NCBI GenBank assembly: GCA_022394755.1
Contig: JAGFCA010000024.1
Location: 12,368 to 76,367, forward strand
Reading direction: 5' to 3'
DNA from: Candidatus Poribacteria bacterium
Lineage (GTDB): Bacteria > Poribacteria > WGA-4E > WGA-3G
Length of the DNA: 64,000 bases
In this document: piece by piece, positions 41,873 to 53,635 of the stretch
How positions within the stretch are numbered: the stretch's first letter is position 1
Layout of the letters: each line of letters opens with the position of its first letter
Made by a program: the position numbers and the translations under genes
Notes under the pieces: model-generated
What the model was told of the DNA's origin: nothing
The model's database searches: none
The model's input: the letters and a program-made list of their open reading frames with translations, nothing else

Positions 41873-44455
41873 CTATTGATCTAAATATAAATTGGGTTGT
41901 TCTTTTTTTAGATTTTGGATAGGTGACATGTCCACGATTGGGTTATTCTTAATATGTAGGGTCTGCAGCTGATTTAGATTTTCAAAAACACTCACATCCT
42001 TAATTTGGTTATCAGATAAGGATAACCATTTCAGTTTCTTGAATTTGACTATAGGAGATATATCTTCAATTTTATTCTTATTAAGTACTAAACGACTCAA
42101 ATGGTCTAATTTTGAGAGTGGACTAATATCTTCTACTTGATTATTGTATATAGATAAGGAGGTTAACCGTTTCATATTAGATAAAACAGTCACTAATTGT
42201 GTAATATCAGAAATTTGATTTCCCTCTAATGTTAATGATGAGAGACGGGACAAACTTTCAAGAGCCGAAAAATCCCTAATTTGACAATCAATAAGAACTA
42301 AATTATTCAGTTGACTTAATTTACTGATAGAACTAATATCTAAAATCTTAACCGTACTGAGATAAAACGTATGAAGATGTTTCAAATGAGTCAATGGAGT
42401 GAGATCATTAATCTGGATATTGTGCAAGAATAAGGAATTAAGGTGGAATAAATCTGATAGTGGTGATAAATCACTAATCGGATTGTCTTTAATCGTCAAA
42501 TAGGTAAGATTCTGCAATTCTACAAGTGGTGATATATCACGTATCTGATTCTCATCAATTGATAAAGTAGTCAATTTTGACATCTTTATTAGTGGTGTGA
42601 GGTCTTTGATATTATTTCCATCAATTCTTAATGACTCTAAATCTGTCAAGTCAGATAATGGGGTGAGATCCATGATTTCACCACTACAAATATACAGATC
42701 TTGTAAGTTTTCTAAATCTTTCAGCGGAGATATATCTGTAACTTTATTTTCTTTATTATCTTCTGTTCTATAGAATCTACGGAGACGTAAAGTCCATAGA
42801 GAGTTCAATCCAGCAAGAGGGGTAATATCACGGATCTTATTTCCACCCAATCCTAAACTTAGGATGTTTGGTAGTTTTGAAAGTGGTTCAAGGTTAATTA
42901 TTCGATTATCATCTAAAGATAAATGCCGTAACTTTGTCAAATTCTTTAATGGTCTGAGGTCCTCAATATCATTAAACATCAACATAATGCTCGTTAGTTC
43001 TGATAGTCCTTCAAGTGGAGAAATATCTTGAATTTCATTCAATGCAAGATCTAATTCTTCTAATGCAGTAGCAAACTCTAAACCCGTCAAGTCAACTATT
43101 TTGGTGCTATTTGAAGATAAAGTTGTTAGTTCTTTTAGTTTTTCTATTGTAATTAGATCAACTGAACTTAGACCGAGTTGACGTGCAATTGCTGCTTCTA
43201 AGTTTGGATCAGGAATGATCTCAGATTCTGAGGTTACTACATCCTCCATATTCTCTGTTAAGTTAACATCTGTTTGCTGGGTATTGAAAGGAAGCGTCCT
43301 CTTCTGCCTCAGCTCATCAAGCAGACCTGTATCACTTAGTAGCTCTTTATCTACATTTAAAATATCTAATTCCTTTAAACCCTTGAGTACCTGTATATCA
43401 CGGATTTCGTTGTTTTCTAAATGTAAATAAGTTAATTTTTCCAAGTTTGCAAGGGGTGAAACATCTATAATGTCATTGTGTTGAAGGTACAGAGTCTTTA
43501 ATTGCTTCAAACCATTCAAAGATGGCAAGACTTTAATTGAATTATGATTCAGATATAGTGTTCTTAATTTAGATAAATTGTCAATGGATGGGACATCAGT
43601 AATTCTATTGCTGCTAAGGTTTAGAGTGCTTAGATTGGTCAAACTCACTATAGGATTAATATCATTGATTTCATTTCGAGCAAGTTCTAATTCTCTTAAA
43701 TTTACCAACCCCGATATAGGAGTAATATCTTGAATTTTATTGTTCGACAATATCAAAGTCTGAAGATTTAGCAAATTTTCAAGAGAGGATATAGAGGTTA
43801 TACGATTTAAATCCAATGTGAGACTATTTAGTTGTTTGAGTTTTTGAAGTGATGGTATTTCTCTTATTCGATTGTCACGAAGGCTAAGTATTATCAATTT
43901 ATGTAGATTTATAATCGGTGTAAAATCTTGTATCTCATTATATTCAAGGAAAATTGTTCTTAATTGTTTTAGATTTCTTAATGCTTCTATACCTTGGATA
44001 TAATTCCTGGACAGAGATAATGAACGTAGGTGATTTAATTTTGAAATAGGCGTCAAATCTGAAATATGGTTATTATCAAGATTCAAAGACCGAAGTCTTT
44101 TCATTTTCTTTAATGTTGATATATCGGTAATATTATTTCTATAAAGTGATAATTGGGTAAGTTTTGTTAATCCCTGAATTGGTGTTATATCTGAAATCTC
44201 ATTCTGATTAAGTGTTAAGACTTTTAATTCTGTAGCATATTCTAAACCAGATAAATCGTTTATCCCTTTATCAGATGCATCAAGTTCTGTCAATTCCTTC
44301 ATATTTTTATTTAAAATTGGTGTATCTGAATCTATTTTGAGAGCATCTCTAATTGCAGTCTCTAAATTCTTATCTGGTATATCTATTTCTATTGGTTCTT
44401 GTGAAACACAACCAATAAATGCCACAAAGAAAATTAGAAAAATTGCATATCTCAT
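41873..44455 (-). CDS. Large leucine-rich repeat lipoprotein (internalin-like LRRs), 860 aa
   Basis: Lipobox FIGC. More than 30 22-aa LRRs in two blocks separated by a linker. 1-nt gap to the downstream LRR gene. Confidence 0.8.
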   Translation of the reverse strand: MRYAIFLIFFVAFIGCVSQEPIEIDIPDKNLETAIRDALKIDSDTPILNKNMKELTELDASDKGINDLSGLEYATELKVLTLNQNEISDITPIQGLTKLTQLSLYRNNITDISTLKKMKRLRSLNLDNNHISDLTPISKLNHLRSLSLSRNYIQGIEALRNLKQLRTIFLEYNEIQDFTPIINLHKLIILSLRDNRIREIPSLQKLKQLNSLTLDLNRITSISSLENLLNLQTLILSNNKIQDITPISGLVNLRELELARNEINDINPIVSLTNLSTLNLSSNRITDVPSIDNLSKLRTLYLNHNSIKVLPSLNGLKQLKTLYLQHNDIIDVSPLANLEKLTYLHLENNEIRDIQVLKGLKELDILNVDKELLSDTGLLDELRQKRTLPFNTQQTDVNLTENMEDVVTSESEIIPDPNLEAAIARQLGLSSVDLITIEKLKELTTLSSNSTKIVDLTGLEFATALEELDLALNEIQDISPLEGLSELTSIMLMFNDIEDLRPLKNLTKLRHLSLDDNRIINLEPLSKLPNILSLGLGGNKIRDITPLAGLNSLWTLRLRRFYRTEDNKENKVTDISPLKDLENLQDLYICSGEIMDLTPLSDLTDLESLRIDGNNIKDLTPLIKMSKLTTLSIDENQIRDISPLVELQNLTYLTIKDNPISDLSPLSDLFHLNSLFLHNIQINDLTPLTHLKHLHTFYLSTVKILDISSISKLSQLNNLVLIDCQIRDFSALESLSRLSSLTLEGNQISDITQLVTVLSNMKRLTSLSIYNNQVEDISPLSKLDHLSRLVLNKNKIEDISPIVKFKKLKWLSLSDNQIKDVSVFENLNQLQTLHIKNNPIVDMSPIQNLKKEQPNLYLDQ

Positions 44456-48338: not shown

Positions 48339-49364
48339 TTATTGCATCCACGCATATATCTTCCGAAGTGTATTCTCACTATGAGTCCATAGGGATCTCT
48401 TAAATGGTGAAAGTACTTTTGTGTAAGTATAGAAATCGGTTTTGATTGCACGGTATTGCTCTTTGTGTGCAATTAATCCTTCATTATCAGGTGGTGAAGC
48501 ACCAAAATCAACATATTCATAACCTTCTTGACATGCCCATTTAATTATGTGGTGGAAGATAGCGTTATTTGGACGGTAATTCAAGTATTTTGGAATTGAC
48601 GCTTCACACCATAAGGTAACTGTCTTATTGAAGTATAGATATAGCAATCCTGCGATAATTGTATCTGAATATGTAGCAATAGCAAGATTAGCAATACCAT
48701 TATTTAATAGTGATTGCATAAGGTTAATAGGTTTGGGGGTTCCCCCTAATCTTTTGACAGTCTTAATGTACATTTCATAGAATGTTTTTAAGTCTTCATG
48801 ATTATCTGTATCTCGAACTTCTACACCGGATTTTTCAGCTTTTCTAACAGCACCTCTAACCCTTTTATTATATGCGTTCCAAATAGAATCTATACTTGTT
48901 TTCGTATTTAGTATATGTGTGAACCTTTCTGTATATTTATAACCCATTTCAGTCAAAAGATTCTTGCTATTATCGAAATTAGTCCCGGATAATGTCCAAG
49001 CGAGTTCACACCATCCATTTGCTCTTGATATGCTGCTGACATATTCCTGCATAGTAGAGATTAAGGATGTAGTATTCAGATCAACAGAATTTACAATATG
49101 AGGACCACCTACTAAATTCCACGGCATTGAATTCCACAACTTAATTCCAGGAATTGGTTGAAACACAAATGATGGAATACCCCCTATAATTGTCTCATTT
49201 TGTTTAATTAGTAGATAAATTGGTGTAAGTTGTTTAAAGGAACGATCAAGGGATTCCATCCATGTTTTACTGTGAAATGCAGTGGAATCGGGACATCTTT
49301 GCATAAGGTTATCCCATTCTTGAGGATTCTCTAATGAGAATTTTTCAATTGTATACACATTCAC
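48339..49364 (-). CDS. FemAB-like / GNAT-fold acyltransferase family protein, hypothetical
   Basis: 341-aa ORF. Resemblance to FemAB-like acetyltransferase (PF13480-type) proteins judged from length and HSKTWMESL...LYLYFNKTVTLWCEAS pattern. Weak. Confidence 0.4.
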   Translation of the reverse strand: MNVYTIEKFSLENPQEWDNLMQRCPDSTAFHSKTWMESLDRSFKQLTPIYLLIKQNETIIGGIPSFVFQPIPGIKLWNSMPWNLVGGPHIVNSVDLNTTSLISTMQEYVSSISRANGWCELAWTLSGTNFDNSKNLLTEMGYKYTERFTHILNTKTSIDSIWNAYNKRVRGAVRKAEKSGVEVRDTDNHEDLKTFYEMYIKTVKRLGGTPKPINLMQSLLNNGIANLAIATYSDTIIAGLLYLYFNKTVTLWCEASIPKYLNYRPNNAIFHHIIKWACQEGYEYVDFGASPPDNEGLIAHKEQYRAIKTDFYTYTKVLSPFKRSLWTHSENTLRKIYAWMQ

Positions 49365-50008
49365 ATTGTAGTTGAAATAAGACTTTTTATCAAGATTACA
49401 TTTTTTTGGAATGTAAAGTTTTTGGCATTAATATCGTATTTTCCATGTGTATATTTATAGATTACAGTTATTGAGTGTCAGTAAACAGTTTACATTAGTA
49501 TTAAATCTAAACTATTACATTTATTAAGATGATTTTATCGTTTTTCCCACTTAGTAGATTTTATTATATGTGTGAGAAAATGTTACACTTTTCCTACAAA
49601 GTGTAGGATTATCTCCTGTTGCTACACTGCCTTTCCTGTTAGTCCCTGTCAGGGTTTGTAACGAATTAAACCTCTAATTCTAAAATTTGAAAAAAGTTAC
49701 AAATTTTGTAGTTTTCCTTGATTAGCGATTATTCTGTTTTTACTATTAATATTCTCATAACATACTATTTATCGGCAGATTCACTCCTGAAAAATCAGAT
49801 TATTGGATTAGATTGTAAAACACTTTGTTTTACTACTATGTAGTATAATAATTCTCTATATGTTATTGTATCATTTATTTTATTATGTCAATGTATATTT
49901 ATCTATATGATATTAGTTTCTTTATCATATATTTTCTTCATTTTATTTTTATGAATTATGCAGGTTGTTATCTGAAACGCTGTTAGTCGACTGCTATTGC
50001 TCCTCATG

Positions 50009-50046
50009 TCAGAATCGTGGATTACATTGTTTGATCCCGATTCTGA
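50009..50046. repeat. Inverted repeat TCAGAATCG-(20 nt)-CGATTCTGA in non-coding gap
   Basis: Perfect 9-bp arms. The same GAATCAGAATC core recurs as a tandem GAATCA array at 50072-50098. Confidence 0.45.
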
Positions 50047-50362
50047 ATAGGATTTTACAGATTTCGCCCCTCGAATCAGAATCAGGAATCAAGAATCAAC
50101 GTTATGAATGCCGTAGGTCATTACCCGTGGCTATCCTTTATATTATCCAAAATCTTTTTTGGAATTAGATTCTCGGTAGTAAAATGTCGAAAATGTCCTA
50201 ACACTTTAAAATTTGGTTGAATCCTCTCTGAAATTTCCCAAACTATAGTAGCTACAAAAAATATTGTTGTATAGTGACAAAAAGTTTACACATCCGATCT
50301 TGAGTTATATAGTGTTATTTCCTATAAATATATGCTATAATCAACAGTAAAGTATAGGAAAT

Positions 50363-51022
50363 ATGAGGGTATTCATGGTAGTACGTAACGGGTTTTCAGA
50401 ATTAGCTGCACAGATGTTTAATGAAACTGATCATGATAGTTTGATAGAACAACTAAACACGAAGTATTCTGAAACCGACTTATTAACCTATCTTCCTGAT
50501 GATGATCTGTTAGTTGCCAGAGCAGCAGCGACAGCCTTAGGATTAATTGGAAGTATGGATTCAGTTCCTGAATTAGTTAAAAATCTGAAAAATGAAGATG
50601 TACGCGCCAGATTTAATACCGAAATGGCATTATGGAGTATCTGGTCTCGATCAGGACAGGATACTGTAGATAGATTGCTTAATACAGGTAAGAGATCTTT
50701 AAAGAATGAAGAGTTCAATAAGGCAGTAGAATGTTTTTCTAAAGTAATTGATATTGATCCAAGATTTGCTGAAGGTTACAATCAAAGAGCAATAGCATTT
50801 TTTATTTTGGATGAATGGGACAATTCACTATCGGATTGCTTACAGACAATTGAATTGAATCCCTATCATTTTGGTGCGTATGCAGGTATGGGGCATATAT
50901 ACTTAAGATTAGGCAAAATTCATGAAGCAGTAGATGCATATAAAAAAGCATTAGAAATTAATCCCAATCTAATCACAGTAGCAGAAACATTATTGCGATT
51001 ACGTCGTGCATTAGAAGAGTAA
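50363..51022 (+). CDS. HEAT-like/TPR repeat protein, hypothetical
   Basis: HEAT-like N-terminal half (AATALGLIGSMDSVPELVKNL). TPR C-terminal half (AEGYNQRAIAFFIL...YAGMGHIYLRLGKIHEAVDAYKKALEINPN). Confidence 0.55.
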   Translation: MRVFMVVRNGFSELAAQMFNETDHDSLIEQLNTKYSETDLLTYLPDDDLLVARAAATALGLIGSMDSVPELVKNLKNEDVRARFNTEMALWSIWSRSGQDTVDRLLNTGKRSLKNEEFNKAVECFSKVIDIDPRFAEGYNQRAIAFFILDEWDNSLSDCLQTIELNPYHFGAYAGMGHIYLRLGKIHEAVDAYKKALEINPNLITVAETLLRLRRALEE

Positions 51023-51039
51023 AATTGACGGGCACATTA

Positions 51040-51810
51040 ATGAATTATGTTTCAATGCGTAAACAAGTAGTATTACAACATGTAATGGTATGTTTCGGAA
51101 TTGCCTGTTTCTTACAATGGATTTTTTTTGAGTTATTTACACTTGGAAAACTCGGATCAAATGCAGAATGTTATGCTATTGCCCAAACATTTGTTGTCCT
51201 GATTGTCGCTCCATATTTAGGAGCAATATCCCATAGAACCCAATTAAATTCAGATTCGTATTTACTGACCAACCTAAGTGTTAGAAATCAACTATTAAAA
51301 CAACTCCTAATTAGTCAGATACCTATATTAATTTGGATTTTCCTGTCATCAACATTCTCATTTTTCTATACAACCAGTTCGCTCATTCAACTGTTACAAA
51401 CGTTTATCGTTCTGGGAGTGTATAGTCTTGTCACAGGCACTCTTGGTATTTGTAGTGCACGAATATTTCGTGATAGTATATTTGGCACAGAATGTACTTA
51501 TGTAATATTAAGTATCTTAATTGGAAGTCCTTTTTTATTAATGCCATTGGACAGATATTTTCAAAGTATTCAAGAATTTATTCAACCAACACTTCATTTC
51601 AATCCGATAATTGCAATTTGTCATATCTATGATGGGATTGATATTTTTAGAACACCACTTCTTTATGAATTAACACCGATCACCTCATACGATTTTTCAT
51701 ACCCTGAATGGTATTTGATTGGTTTTTGGTTCATCTTATTAGGGTGTTGCAGCTTTGTTTTGACATGGCTAATATCTAAGAAAAATAGAGTACGTCAATT
51801 CAACTATTAA
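51040..51810 (+). CDS. Polytopic integral membrane protein, hypothetical
   Basis: About 6 predicted TM helices. ORF track starts at TTG 51025; first ATG at 51040. Confidence 0.45.
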   Translation: MNYVSMRKQVVLQHVMVCFGIACFLQWIFFELFTLGKLGSNAECYAIAQTFVVLIVAPYLGAISHRTQLNSDSYLLTNLSVRNQLLKQLLISQIPILIWIFLSSTFSFFYTTSSLIQLLQTFIVLGVYSLVTGTLGICSARIFRDSIFGTECTYVILSILIGSPFLLMPLDRYFQSIQEFIQPTLHFNPIIAICHIYDGIDIFRTPLLYELTPITSYDFSYPEWYLIGFWFILLGCCSFVLTWLISKKNRVRQFNY

Positions 51811-53221: not shown

Positions 53222-53635
53222 TTGCGTATTTTGTCACAATAGATAATGGTTGACATTCTAAAAAACATCATTAATAAATAAATAAATAATAATATACATA
53301 TAAAATAGGTACGAATAGCCTAATTAGTATCCAGAGTTTGATAATATGTGTATGAACATTATTTCGAAAAATATCACTCTCATATACCCAGTAGGGTGGA
53401 AACGCCAAATAGGATTCATACCGTTGAATCTCGGTTTTCCAATCGGGCAGGATTGAAGATGAACCCAAGTTCGGTATGGTCGCTCAGGATAACTCTGATC
53501 GGTTTGGAAACCGAACCATCTGACTTGGGAGAAGTCCATTCGATCTTAAAATGGTCTTAATGGTGTGTTTTAACCGAACCACTTACAAAAACTGATTTAT
53601 CAAACTCACGTTAATTAGTATTGTCTGGAGTAAAT

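What the first reader, a model, noticed from the sequence alone, without database searches (positions are those of the whole stretch)
49365..50362. About 1 kb very AT-rich non-coding gap with an embedded GC-richer hairpin island and a GAATCAGAATC repeat/palindrome array
Between the FemAB-like gene end and the HEAT/TPR gene start there is no convincing ORF for about 1 kb; the 67-aa ORF at 49965-50168 lies across the repeat array. Two things stand out. First, 49581-49675 is distinctly more G+C rich and contains small palindromes (CCTACAAAGTGTAGG at 49593-49607; CCCTGTCAGGG at 49644-49654, followed by TTT) and a repeated TCCTGTT; it looks like a small structured RNA or terminator cluster. Second, at 50009-50098 there is a perfect 9-bp inverted repeat TCAGAATCG/CGATTCTGA (20-nt loop), then four tandem GAATCA units (50072-50098). 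That resembles an array of binding half-sites for a transcription factor. The extreme AT-richness of the flanks (49800-49960) also fits a horizontally acquired junction or nucleoid-protein-bound region.
Basis: seen in the sequence. Interest (0 to 1): 0.5.

Follow-up and report, generated by a model that had tools for sequence, protein, structure and literature searches.

The report
Expanded promoter spacer with repeat relics
The 1-kb gap is an expanded, fast-evolving spacer between two back-to-back genes of a Poribacteria genome, and its odd palindrome and GAATCA array are a decayed copy of a small hairpin repeat scattered through Poribacteria genomes, not a regulator-binding array.

Summary

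- **The gap.** It lies between divergent genes, FemAB/GNAT-like (-) and HEAT/TPR (+). Only its two ends are conserved in relatives (about 49365-49405 and 50299-50362). In more distant Poribacteria the whole spacer is 72-120 bp and consists of just those two blocks. The roughly 890-bp interior is therefore a lineage-specific expansion.
- **The GAATCA array and what follows it (50072-50129).** This is a degenerate copy of a 35-nt hairpin module, AAATCAACGGTATGAATGCC-loop-GGCATTCCCCG.
  - The module is dispersed: more than 120 metagenome stretches and labelled Ca. Poribacteria MAGs.
  - It sits nested inside other short repeats, and a third of copies carry extra AATCA units at the 5' end.
  - A subfamily profile built without the window hits the window copy at E = 4e-9. 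A second relic lies at 53394-53434 (E = 1e-3).
- **The 9-bp inverted repeat.** Its left arm lies in a sequence one mismatch from the start of another dispersed module of the same repeat clusters; the right arm contains a GATCCC(C)GATTC motif also present in the spacers of relatives.
- **The G+C-richer island (about 49556-49720).** It has diverged homologues in two relatives and folds better than shuffles (z = -3.5). Its function is unresolved.

Nothing matches Rfam, and no terminator, tRNA or credible ORF was found. For the window this is an ordinary relic. The repeat family itself appears undescribed.

The parts
49365..49405 (-). Conserved block next to the FemAB/GNAT-like gene. It holds a promoter-like TTGATA-17-TACAAT. 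In relatives it also holds the first 7 codons of the gene.
   Evidence: It aligns at 86-94% with L001, L005 and L006, and identity stops at about 49405. The promoter scan finds the site at 49393->49365, matching 10 of 12. The same block lies in the 120-bp spacer of L129.
49406..50298 (.). Lineage-specific interior of the spacer, about 890 bp. It cannot be aligned with the same spacer in relatives and is inferred to be an expansion by insertions followed by decay.
   Evidence: BLAST and alignments are. Spacer lengths in relatives are 72-1296 bp. Short-read (Logan) contigs from the sample that carries identical flanking proteins stop at about 49440 and 50222.
49556..49720 (+). G+C-richer, palindrome-rich island. 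It includes the hairpin GAGAAAATGTTACACTTT/AAAGTGTAGGATTATCTC, CCTACAAAGTGTAGG and CCCTGTCAGGGTTTGT. It is a diverged homologue of elements in L001 and L002 and may be related to a dispersed element of about 170 nt ('family 2').
   Evidence: A three-way alignment with L001 5040-5195 and L002 2462-2620 is. It shares a 17-nt exact match, GAAAATGTTACACTTTT, with L001. A profile from L001 and L002 gives the window its only other hit, 10.7 bits, E = 0.24 over 0.87 Mb. A family-2 profile has its best window hit at 49637-49702, E = 0.023. RNA fold z = -3.5 on the + strand and -2.6 on the - strand.
49800..49960 (.). Extremely A+T-rich stretch, 15-19% G+C per 100 nt. No repeat or homologue was found.
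   Evidence: lowest 100-nt G+C of the 64 kb. BLAST finds only low-complexity matches.
50007..50070 (+). Relic of other modules of the same repeat clusters. TGTCAGAATCGTGGATTAC resembles the start of dispersed TGTCTGAATCGCGGATTACGCGGATTAC arrays. GATCCCGATTC and GGATTTTACAGATTTCG are also here. The perfect 9-bp inverted repeat 50009-50017 / 50038-50046 is formed between two of these pieces.
   Evidence: The pattern C[AT]GAATC[AG][CT][GA]GATT gives 11 distinct sites in 0.8 Mb of loci, against about 0.02 expected by my own estimate, plus this one. GGATT..ACAGATTTCG is shared with L118 8801. GATCCC(C)GATTC also occurs in the same spacer of L006 (twice) and L001.
50072..50093 (+). GAATCA / GAATCAG / GAATCAA tandem units. 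These are reiterated copies of the 5' end (AATCAA) of the hairpin module that follows.
   Evidence: TRF result. L064 has ACCCCCTAAAGAATCAGAATCAGAATCAGAATCAACGG, and L019 and L106 have one or two units. Of 94 distinct copies, 32 carry 1-3 extra AATCAx units directly 5'.
50092..50127 (+). Degenerate copy of the 35-nt dispersed hairpin module ('family 1'). Consensus: AAATCAACGGTATGAATGCC-loop-GGCATTCCCCG. Here: AGAATCAACGTTATGAATGCCGTAGGTCATTACCCG.
   Evidence: Covariance model R1, built without the window, scores it 23.2 bits, E about 8e-5. Three pairs are non-canonical, and intact copies score 50-64 bits. A subfamily nhmmer profile covers 50072-50129 at 32.3 bits, E = 4.3e-9. The first lead was BLAST to three L002 sites, E = 1e-6 to 2e-4 in that run.
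50299..50362 (+). Conserved core promoter and 5' UTR of the HEAT/TPR operon. It holds an invariant TGcTATAAT (50333-50341), TTGAGT-17-TATAAA (50300-50328), and an 11-bp inverted repeat TATTTCCTATA/TATAGGAAATA that brackets the -10 region.
   Evidence: In a six-genome alignment, conservation starts abruptly at 50299. TGTGCTATAATCAA is also present in L129. The inverted repeat is I14.
53394..53434 (-). Second, more decayed relic of the family-1 module, in the PGM-CofD spacer of the same operon.
   Evidence: R1 scores it 13.8 bits, E = 0.046. The subfamily profile scores it 14.8 bits, E = 0.0012. The sequence is shown.

Best explanation
The gap is an expanded, rapidly turning-over spacer between two divergently transcribed units of a Candidatus Poribacteria genome.

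- **Ends (shown).** The two ends, about 40 and 64 bp, are the conserved promoter-proximal blocks of the FemAB/GNAT-like gene and of the HEAT/TPR-PGM-CofD operon. In more distant relatives these two blocks make up nearly the whole spacer.
- **Interior (shown as lineage-specific; origin inferred).** The roughly 890-bp interior is lineage-specific DNA. I infer that it accumulated through insertions of the small mobile or dispersed repeats that populate Poribacteria intergenic regions, and has since decayed under A+T-biased mutation.
- **Second curiosity (shown).** The stretch at 50007-50129 is one such relic cluster. It holds a degenerate copy of a 35-nt hairpin module preceded by reiterations of its own 5' AATCA motif. 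Upstream of it lie pieces of the neighbouring GTCTGAATC.../GATCCCGATTC modules. Because several of these pieces contain GAATC or its complement, two of them in opposite orientation form the 9-bp inverted repeat.
- **First curiosity (partly shown).** The island at about 49556-49720 is a second, older palindrome-rich element. It is shared in diverged form with two relatives and keeps its hairpins.
- **Present-day function (inferred).** I infer no sequence-specific function for the relics. At most they act as DNA or RNA hairpins that insulate the two promoters.
- **How intact copies spread (partly shown).** Intact copies elsewhere sit in hairpin loops and heptamer arrays of other repeats, and ride inside larger elements with terminal inverted repeats and target-site duplications. 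The enzyme responsible is unknown.
For: **Taxon and synteny.** The relatives are Ca. Poribacteria MAGs. Gene order on both sides is conserved in L005.

**Only the ends are conserved.**
- BLAST and alignments show identity limited to 49301-49409 and 50298-50420.
- L129 and L130 have spacers of 120 and 72 bp. The L129 spacer, which I read, consists of just these two blocks.
- Other spacers are 283 bp (L006), 495 bp (L005), 636 bp (L002) and 1296 bp (L001).

**Family 1 is a real dispersed hairpin repeat.**
- R1 finds 177 hits in 658 kb of those loci.
- The 7-bp stem is kept by compensatory changes: U-A to C-G in 13 of 65 copies and C-G to U-A in 5 of 65. Cells paired are 97%, against 30-50% when the partners are slid.
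- Intact copies occur in NCBI-labelled Poribacteria MAGs.
- Copies occur in both orientations relative to the same operon.

**The window copy belongs to it.**
- R1 scores it 23.2 bits.
- The subfamily profile gives E = 4.3e-9 and includes the AATCA reiterations.
- L064, L019 and L106 have the same CCCCT..GAATCAGAATC..AATCAACGG flank.
- Extra AATCA units occur in 32 of 94 copies.

**Nesting and mobility.**
- The doublet GTAGGAGCGACC...GGTCGCTCCTAC occurs both empty and filled.
- At an orthologous site, L131 has a 254-bp element with a 22-bp perfect terminal inverted repeat and the module nested inside. L133 and L129 lack it.
- A DDE transposase gene sits in the equivalent neighbourhood of L002.

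**Island 1.** Homologues are shown, and the fold z-score.
Against: - The window copies are badly decayed. R1 gives 23 and 14 bits against 50-64 for intact copies, so membership rests on profile statistics, not on an intact structure.
- The pattern used for the metagenome scan was designed from the window and L002. The window's own G-to-T variant otherwise hit only unrelated contigs.
- No family-1 copy was found in the 4 nearest relatives, L001, L003, L005 and L006. The time of insertion cannot be placed.
- Most of the interior (49720-50000, 50130-50298) matches nothing. 'Decayed insertions' is therefore an inference for those parts.
- Island 1's link to family 2 is marginal (E = 0.023, and E = 0.24 over 0.87 Mb). 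Its retained hairpins could mean it is functional rather than a relic.
- There are no expression data.
Confidence: 0.72

Rival explanations
1. The inverted repeat and the four GAATCA units are an array of operator half-sites for a transcription factor that controls the divergent FemAB-like and HEAT/TPR promoters.
For: The inverted repeat is perfect (9 bp) and the four direct units lie 200-350 bp upstream of a conserved promoter. GAATCAGAATC-like words are slightly enriched in the window, 7 against 2.7 expected.
Against: - The motifs are absent from the same spacer in L001, L005, L006, L003, L129 and L130. The promoters themselves are conserved there.
- By coordinates, the other six near-matches in the window lie within long ORFs.
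- The units are contiguous with a hairpin module, as in dispersed copies at unrelated loci and in variable number.
Confidence: 0.06
2. The island at about 49556-49720 encodes or constitutes a functional structured element. It could be a small RNA, or a palindromic operator or promoter region for one of the flanking units, maintained by selection rather than being a relic.
For: - The fold z-score is -3.5 on the + strand, with 0 of 200 shuffles as stable.
- The same architecture occurs in L001 (same spacer) and L002: GAAAATGTTACACTTTT, then a palindrome, then ...CTGGGTTTAT...TAAAATTT. The palindrome arms differ (CCTACA/TGTAGG against TGTCACA/TGTGACA) but remain complementary.
- The related family 2 has a 14-bp terminal stem, and 9 of its pairs show compensatory changes.
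- Promoter-like GTAACA-17-TAAAAT lies on the - strand at 49586->49558.
Against: - It is absent from the equivalent spacers of L005, L006, L129 and L130.
- There is no Rfam match and no terminator.
- L001 and L002 carry a 6-nt insertion that breaks the promoter spacing.
- In L002 the element lies in a different gene neighbourhood, as expected for a mobile or dispersed element.
- Family-2 copies travel with the Shine-Dalgarno sequence and the first 24 codons of a gene. That looks like a fragment of a larger mobile unit.
Confidence: 0.15
3. The interior is a neutral A+T-rich spacer. The matches to repeat families are chance resemblances in low-complexity DNA.
For: Most of the interior has no match to anything. 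Inverted repeats of 9 bp are common in the window, in 38 of 127 tiles. Family-2 and island statistics are marginal.
Against: - The profile hit for 50072-50129 has E = 4.3e-9 in 64 kb, from a profile built without the window.
- The second-best hit is again intergenic and in the same operon, E = 0.0012.
- The first BLAST of the gap against one relative's 12.6 kb gave three independent hits.
Confidence: 0.05
4. The 67-aa ORF at 49965-50168, or another small ORF in the gap, is a real small-protein gene.
For: The ORF exists and lies in the part of the gap with genome-average G+C.
Against: - It has a TTG start. I read no Shine-Dalgarno-like sequence upstream of it.
- It has no Pfam match.
- It runs straight across the inverted repeat, the tandem units and the hairpin relic.
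- The region has no counterpart in relatives.
Confidence: 0.02

Closest known systems
REP / REPIN elements mobilised by RAYT (Y1 HUH) transposases (Bertels & Rainey 2011, PMC3116915; Nunvar et al., as cited there)
   Same: They are short, extragenic, high-copy imperfect palindromes. They cluster and insert into or next to one another. The host module in Poribacteria loci, GTAGGAGCGACCtcccGGTCGC|GCGACCgggaGGTCGCTCCTAC, is an inverted doublet bounded by GTAG/CTAC, like a REPIN. Relic copies decay in spacers.
   Different: The 35-nt family-1 module has no GTAG/CTAC of its own and occurs mostly as a singlet, nested in the loop of another hairpin. No RAYT or IS200-like gene was found in 0.87 Mb of loci plus the window (the queries were recalled from memory, so this is a weak test). 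The phylum is different and the sequences are unrelated.
Small dispersed repeats (SDR) and heptamer STRR arrays of Nostoc/Anabaena (Elhai et al. 2008, recalled from memory; cited as ref. 43 in PMC3116915)
   Same: These are very small (tens of nt) hairpin-forming units found nested within one another and inside tandem heptamer arrays. Here the module sits inside CAGGATT-type heptamer arrays, inside sister modules and inside REP-like hairpins.
   Different: The host phylum is different and there is no sequence similarity. The comparison rests on my recollection of that paper, which is not in the searchable library. No mechanism is established for either system.
MITEs (non-autonomous DDE-transposon derivatives)
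   Same: At an orthologous site, L131 carries a 254-bp insertion with a 22-bp perfect terminal inverted repeat and a likely TTAATT target duplication. The family-1 module is inside it. A DDE_Tnp_1 gene lies beside the L002 spacer.
   Different: The 35-nt module itself has no terminal inverted repeats or visible target duplication. In the window, no terminal repeats or duplications bound the interior or the relic.
Divergent-promoter intergenic regions with operator arrays
   Same: The position is between two divergent genes, with direct and inverted repeats.
   Different: The repeats are not conserved with the promoters and belong to a dispersed family.

Membership tests
Poribacteria dispersed 35-nt hairpin module ('family 1', defined here) | Sequence match to AAATCAACGGTATGAATGCC-loop-GGCATTCCCCG, scored with a profile built without the window | tested here: met
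   R1 gives 23.2 bits, E about 8e-5, at 50092-50127. nhmmer with the subfamily profile gives 32.3 bits, E = 4.3e-9, at 50072-50129.
Poribacteria dispersed 35-nt hairpin module ('family 1', defined here) | Intact 7-bp hairpin GAAYGCC/GGCRTTC | tested here: not met
   The window has GAATGCC gtag GTCATTA. cmsearch marks three non-canonical pairs in the model structure. The copy is therefore decayed.
Poribacteria dispersed 35-nt hairpin module ('family 1', defined here) | Intergenic location, with optional reiterated AATCAx units at the 5' end | tested here: met
   Both window copies are intergenic. Of 94 copies, 32 have 1-3 extra units, and L064 has three, as the window does.
REP/REPIN-RAYT | Short extragenic palindrome in high copy number in the genome | tested here: inconclusive
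   Copy number is high in metagenome loci and some Poribacteria MAGs. Only two decayed copies occur in this 64-kb window, and none in the 4 nearest relatives.
REP/REPIN-RAYT | Conserved GTAG/CTAC next to the hairpin, and inverted doublets | tested here: not met
   The family-1 module lacks GTAG/CTAC and is a singlet. Only its frequent host module, GTAGGAGCGACC..., has these features. That host module is not present in the window gap.
REP/REPIN-RAYT | Cognate RAYT (Y1 transposase) gene flanked by the repeats | tested here: inconclusive
   tblastn with IS200 TnpA and E. coli YafM sequences recalled from memory found nothing in 0.87 Mb. The loci are fragments and no whole genome was searched.
MITE | Terminal inverted repeats and target-site duplication bounding the element | tested here: not met
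   No such pair bounds 50007-50129 or the interior. A composite carrier element in L131 does have a 22-bp terminal inverted repeat.
Transcription-factor operator array | Conservation together with the regulated promoter in orthologous spacers | tested here: not met
   The promoter block 50299-50362 is conserved in six genomes. The array is absent from all of them.
Transcription-factor operator array | Recurrence of the motif upstream of other genes of the genome | tested here: not met
   Within the 64 kb, the other near-matches to GAATCAGAATC and TCAGAATCG lie within long ORFs by coordinates. The rest of the genome was not available.
Known RNA families (Rfam 15) | Covariance-model match | tested here: not met
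   There are no gathering-level hits in the window. At E up to 10 in 49200-50500 there are two matches I judge spurious. There are none in 17 repeat-rich loci.
Intrinsic terminator | G+C-rich stem followed by a T run | tested here: not met
   The scan found 0 sites in 49200-50500. CCCTGTCAGGG has only a 4-5 bp stem followed by TTTGT.

The most novel reading that the evidence does not exclude
The 35-nt hairpin module may be an autonomous unit of mobility in Poribacteria. On this reading it is a tiny element that inserts into the loops of other DNA hairpins and into heptamer arrays, without a recognisable RAYT. Repeated insertion and imprecise excision, or slippage, would leave 7-nt AATCAx footprints. 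The window's GAATCA array would then record several such events at one site. The co-occurring family-2 element, with a conserved core and co-varying terminal and internal stems, could be a structured RNA or ssDNA intermediate of the same system.
Probability: 0.25. Interest if true: 0.6.

Novelty: new member of a known kind. Interest (0 to 1): 0.3.

Why it matters
For this window it matters little. The region is a non-coding relic and should not be annotated as a regulator-binding array, a small RNA or a small protein.

**Practical points**
- Such repeat-laden, A+T-rich spacers break short-read assemblies. Contigs from the sample that carries identical flanking proteins stop on both sides of the interior.
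- They can also be mistaken for regulatory architecture.

**Broader point**
- The check uncovered an apparently undescribed, abundant system of nested short hairpin repeats in Candidatus Poribacteria. It includes a 35-nt module, REPIN-like doublets, heptamer arrays, carrier elements with terminal inverted repeats, and a 170-nt element with co-varying stems.
- Poribacteria are uncultivated, and REP/SDR-type elements are poorly understood mechanistically.
- A lineage with many filled and empty sites in public metagenomes would be good material for working out how such tiny repeats spread.

Tried and rejected
- **Rfam.** The gathering search of the whole window and the E-up-to-10 search of the gap gave nothing except weak ToxI and HOXB13-AS1 matches that I judge spurious. 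A search of 17 repeat-rich loci also gave nothing.
- **tRNA and tmRNA.** None found, so there is no detected tRNA-linked integration site.
- **Terminator scan.** None found. Promoter-like sites are no more frequent than in shuffles (8 against 8.9).
- **Self-BLAST of the gap against the window.** No internal repeats. A 10-mer map against the loci was too noisy except at the two family-1 relics.
- **Small ORFs against Pfam.** No match.
- **Pseudogene remnant of the family-2-associated ORF (MKLQDKHK...).** No tblastn trace in the window. That protein matches DUF2280 only weakly (E = 0.22).
- **RAYT/IS200 search.** No hit. The queries were recalled from memory, so this is weak.
- **Viral contigs.** The single 18-mer match has no hairpin and is a chance hit.
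- **Sigma-54 promoter, group II intron domain V and tRNA T-arm resemblances.** I considered these by eye and dropped them because the consensus spacing or pairing did not fit.
- **Long imperfect inverted repeat across the interior (I4/I5).** The geometry is inconsistent with a single inverted repeat.
- **Literature.** Four searches combining Poribacteria with REP, MITE, REPIN, palindromic or small dispersed repeats found no description of these repeats.
- **Taxonomic check of the metagenome loci.** tblastn with the window's proteins was uninformative. The link to Poribacteria instead rests on labelled MAGs.
Full report
**1. The observation**

Reading 49000-50700 confirms every feature at the stated coordinates.
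- The gap runs from 49365 to 50362. It lies between a minus-strand ORF (48339-49364; FemAB and Acetyltransf_6 by Pfam) and a plus-strand ORF (50363-51022; HEAT/TPR).
- The palindromes are CCTACAAAGTGTAGG (49593-49607) and CCCTGTCAGGG followed by TTT (49644-49654). TCCTGTT occurs twice.
- The perfect 9-bp inverted repeat is TCAGAATCG/CGATTCTGA, with a 20-nt loop.
- The tandem array is at 50073-50099, period 7, four copies.
- The 67-aa ORF has a TTG start.

Composition:
- Two stretches, about 49550-49700 and 49950-50150, sit at the genome-average G+C of 36-41%.
- The rest of the gap is 15-30% G+C.
- 49830-49970 holds the lowest 100-nt G+C of the whole 64 kb.
- The gap's overall 28.6% is nevertheless normal for intergenic DNA here (21-34%).
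- What is unusual is its length, 998 bp against 531 bp for the next longest spacer.

Taken alone, neither the inverted repeat nor the tandem array is beyond what this window produces elsewhere.

**2. Standard annotation finds nothing**
- No Rfam family matches, at gathering or at a permissive threshold.
- There is no tRNA or tmRNA.
- There is no terminator-like site and no excess of promoter-like sites.
- The small ORFs have no Pfam match.

**3. Organism and synteny**
- The HEAT/TPR protein finds Candidatus Poribacteria MAGs.
- In L005 (85% protein identity) the whole neighbourhood is collinear: LRR, S58 peptidase, phosphodiesterase, sulfatase, FemAB | HEAT/TPR, a 260-aa protein, PGM, CofD. 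The gap is therefore not the edge of an acquired island.
- DNA identity to relatives is 85-94% in the flanks. It stops abruptly about 40 nt beyond the FemAB end (about 49405) and starts again at 50299.
- The right-hand block holds an invariant extended -10 (TGcTATAAT, 50333-50341) and TTGAGT-17-TATAAA. It is the core promoter and 5' UTR of the HEAT/TPR operon.
- The left-hand block holds TTGATA-17-TACAAT. In relatives it also holds the first seven codons of the gene.
- The spacer is 72 bp in L130 and 120 bp in L129. L129 consists essentially of these two blocks joined.
- It is 283 bp in L006, 495 bp in L005, 636 bp in L002 and 1296 bp in L001.
- The roughly 890-bp interior in the window is therefore a lineage-specific expansion of a normally short divergent-promoter spacer.
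- Short-read contigs from the sample that carries identical flanking proteins end at about 49440 and 50222, on either side of that interior.

**4. The GAATCA array and inverted repeat**

*The lead.* BLAST of the gap against L002 gave three hits for 50084-50127 at three different intergenic sites. This revealed the motif GAATCAACGGTATGAATGCC-loop-GGCATTCCCC.

*The family is large.*
- After discarding chance 18-mer matches, 65 distinct core sequences were aligned.
- The 7-bp stem is 98.5% paired. Two positions change on both sides: U-A to C-G in 13 copies and C-G to U-A in 5 copies. Slid controls pair only 30-50%.
- Covariance model R1, built without the window, finds 177 copies in 658 kb of those loci. 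Intact ones score 50-64 bits.
- It also finds intact copies in NCBI-labelled Poribacteria MAGs, within the same HEAT/TPR-PGM-CofD operon but at different spacers and in both orientations.

*The window copies.*
- R1 scores 50092-50127 at 23.2 bits (E about 8e-5) and 53394-53431 (-) at 13.8 bits.
- A sequence profile of the five copies with the most similar flank (L019, L106, L065, L002, L064) gives E = 4.3e-9 for 50072-50129. It gives E = 0.0012 for the second copy.
- That subfamily reads ...CCCCCTAAAG(AATCAG)n AATCAACGG..., with n from 0 to 3.
- Overall, 32 of 94 copies carry one to three extra AATCAx units directly 5'.
- The window's "four tandem GAATCA units" are therefore the reiterated 5' end of a decayed module, not an independent array.

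*The inverted repeat.* Upstream of the module lie more repeat fragments.
- TGTCAGAATCGTGGATTAC is one mismatch from the start of another dispersed module, TGTCTGAATCGCGGATTACGCGGATTAC... That module has 11 distinct sites in 0.8 Mb, against about 0.02 expected by my own estimate.
- GGATTTTACAGATTTCG matches L118.
- GATCCCGATTC recurs in the equivalent spacers of L006 and L001.
- The 9-bp inverted repeat is formed between the first and third of these pieces.

**5. How the family behaves elsewhere**
- The module is typically nested. It sits in the loop of the second hairpin of a REPIN-like palindromic doublet, GTAGGAGCGACCtcccGGTCGCGACCgggaGGTCGCTCCTAC. That doublet also exists empty.
- It also sits inside CAGGATT-type heptamer arrays, inside the loop of a sister module, and inside GGGAATCGGAGTTCCC hairpins.
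- At an orthologous position after CofD, L131 has a 254-bp insertion that L133 and L129 lack. The insertion has a 22-bp perfect terminal inverted repeat, a probable TTAATT duplication, and a family-1 module inside.
- L002 has a DDE transposase gene next to its HEAT/TPR spacer.
- These points show that Poribacteria spacers, including those of this operon, are repeatedly hit by small mobile or dispersed elements.
- No Y1/RAYT gene was detected in the sampled DNA, though that test was weak.
- The single match in viral contigs is a chance hit.

**6. The first island**

*Structure.* 49572-49720 folds better than shuffles (z = -3.5 on the + strand, -2.6 on the - strand). The fold has a long hairpin (GAGAAAATGTTACACTTT/AAAGTGTAGGATTATCTC) and a second domain closed by GCTACA/TGTAG and TTTGTAAC/GTTACAAA.

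*Homologues.*
- It shares a 17-nt exact word with the L001 spacer.
- It aligns with L001 5040-5195 and L002 2462-2620 in a common architecture: GAAAATGTTACACTTTT, a palindrome, CTTTCC, CTGGGTTTAT, TAAAATTT. The palindrome arms differ but stay complementary.
- A profile of L001 and L002 alone hits only this place in the window, but weakly (10.7 bits).
- In L002 the element lies in a different gene neighbourhood.
- It is missing from L005, L006 and L129, and BLAST of the gap found no interior match in L005, L006 or L003.

*Possible link to a second dispersed family.* The motif CCCTGTCAGGGTTTGT also links the island, marginally (E = 0.023), to a second dispersed family of about 170 nt.
- That family has a conserved core, CTGTCTGGGTTTATGGGTTGTTTTCAYCGGTTT.
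- Its flanking words co-vary (GGTTACC, GATACC, GATACAG, GTGTACC) and form a 14-bp terminal stem in which nine pairs show compensatory changes.
- Copies travel with a Shine-Dalgarno sequence and the first 24 codons of an ORF.

I regard the island as an older, diverged dispersed element. A present function as an operator or small RNA cannot be excluded.

**7. Verdict**
- The "transcription-factor half-site array" reading is not supported. The "structured RNA/terminator cluster" reading for the first island is unproven.
- The best-supported account is an expanded, hypervariable divergent-promoter spacer. Its conserved ends are the promoters. Its interior carries decayed relics of Poribacteria-specific nested hairpin repeats.
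- For the window this is ordinary.
- The repeat system appears undescribed. It has no Rfam family, and four literature searches found nothing.
- It most resembles REP/REPIN elements (PMC3116915) and, from memory, the small dispersed repeats of Nostoc.

Noticed in passing
window 53394-53434 (-), PGM-CofD spacer: A second decayed copy of the 35-nt hairpin module: AGATTCAACGGTATGAATCCTATTTGGCGTTTCCACCC. The same spacer also has hairpin-like GGTTCGGTTTCCAAACCGATC, which resembles GGAGCGGTTTCTAACCGCTCC in L005 and GCGGTTGGGAAACCGCACC in L002.
   Followed up: partly
window 50363-50377: The HEAT/TPR gene probably starts at ATG 50375, not 50363. The NCBI protein has 215 aa and GAGGG (50365-50369) is well placed as a Shine-Dalgarno sequence. 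The non-coding gap would then be 12 nt longer.
   Followed up: partly
window 49364-49385: Relatives L001 and L005 start the FemAB-like gene at an ATG 21 nt upstream of the window's GTG. The window and L006 have AAG there, so the start codon has shifted or the N-terminus is 7 residues shorter. The promoter-like TTGATA-17-TACAAT then abuts the GTG.
   Followed up: no
window 50316-50326 / 50353-50363: A perfect 11-bp inverted repeat, TATTTCCTATA/TATAGGAAATA, brackets the conserved TGcTATAAT -10 region and reaches the start codon. It is partly conserved in relatives (L001: TATTTCCTTA...TATAGGAAACA). It may be a 5' UTR or operator hairpin of the HEAT/TPR operon. The fold z-score is only -0.6.
   Followed up: partly
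L040 3333 and 7756; L052 7149; L107 1350 (metagenome loci): The REPIN-like palindromic doublet GTAGGAGCGACCtcccGGTCGCGACCgggaGGTCGCTCCTAC exists both empty and with the 35-nt module inserted in the loop of its second hairpin. It sits within a larger repeated unit of about 150 nt (...GCCATTTGCTGAGGACTACTT[doublet]AGAAGAAAGATTTCCAATCAATAAC...).
   Followed up: partly
L131 14218-14471 versus L133 and L129 (labelled Ca. Poribacteria MAGs): A filled/empty site at an orthologous position downstream of CofD. The 254-bp insertion has a 22-bp perfect terminal inverted repeat (GGTAATGTGGCAAGGTTAGGAA), a probable TTAATT target duplication and a family-1 module nested inside.
   Followed up: yes
L081 130-300 and 490-660; L058 1690-1850 and 2130-2300; L096 6110-6280; L107 2915-3085; L061; L104: A dispersed element of about 170 nt ('family 2'). 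It has a conserved core and terminal and internal words that co-vary between copies (GGTTACC, GATACC, GATACAG, GTGTACC). These words give a 14-bp terminal stem with 9 compensatory pairs. The element lies next to a Shine-Dalgarno sequence and the first 24 codons of MKLQDKHKTFAVKSFAKLMTR... Only L096 has the full 230-aa ORF, which matches DUF2280 weakly. There is no Rfam match.
   Followed up: partly
L002 4174-5364: A DDE_Tnp_1 transposase gene and a methyltransferase gene lie between the island-like element and the HEAT/TPR spacer in this Poribacteria MAG. An aspartate kinase gene replaces the FemAB-sulfatase side, so this neighbourhood is a rearrangement hot spot.
   Followed up: partly
L004 and L128 (Logan contigs of SRR12727663): Short-read contigs from the sample that carries identical flanking proteins end 76 nt upstream of the FemAB start (about window 49440) and at window 50222. 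The interior of the gap is not contained in either, which is consistent with repeat or strain-variation branching or low coverage of A+T-rich DNA.
   Followed up: partly
window 51025-51810: A 261-aa ORF between HEAT/TPR and PGM is conserved in position in all Poribacteria relatives examined (259-272 aa) but has no Pfam match.
   Followed up: no
window 41873-44455: An 860-aa leucine-rich-repeat protein (16 LRR_4 stretches) lies in the conserved neighbourhood. It is a eukaryote-like repeat protein of the type reported for Poribacteria.
   Followed up: no
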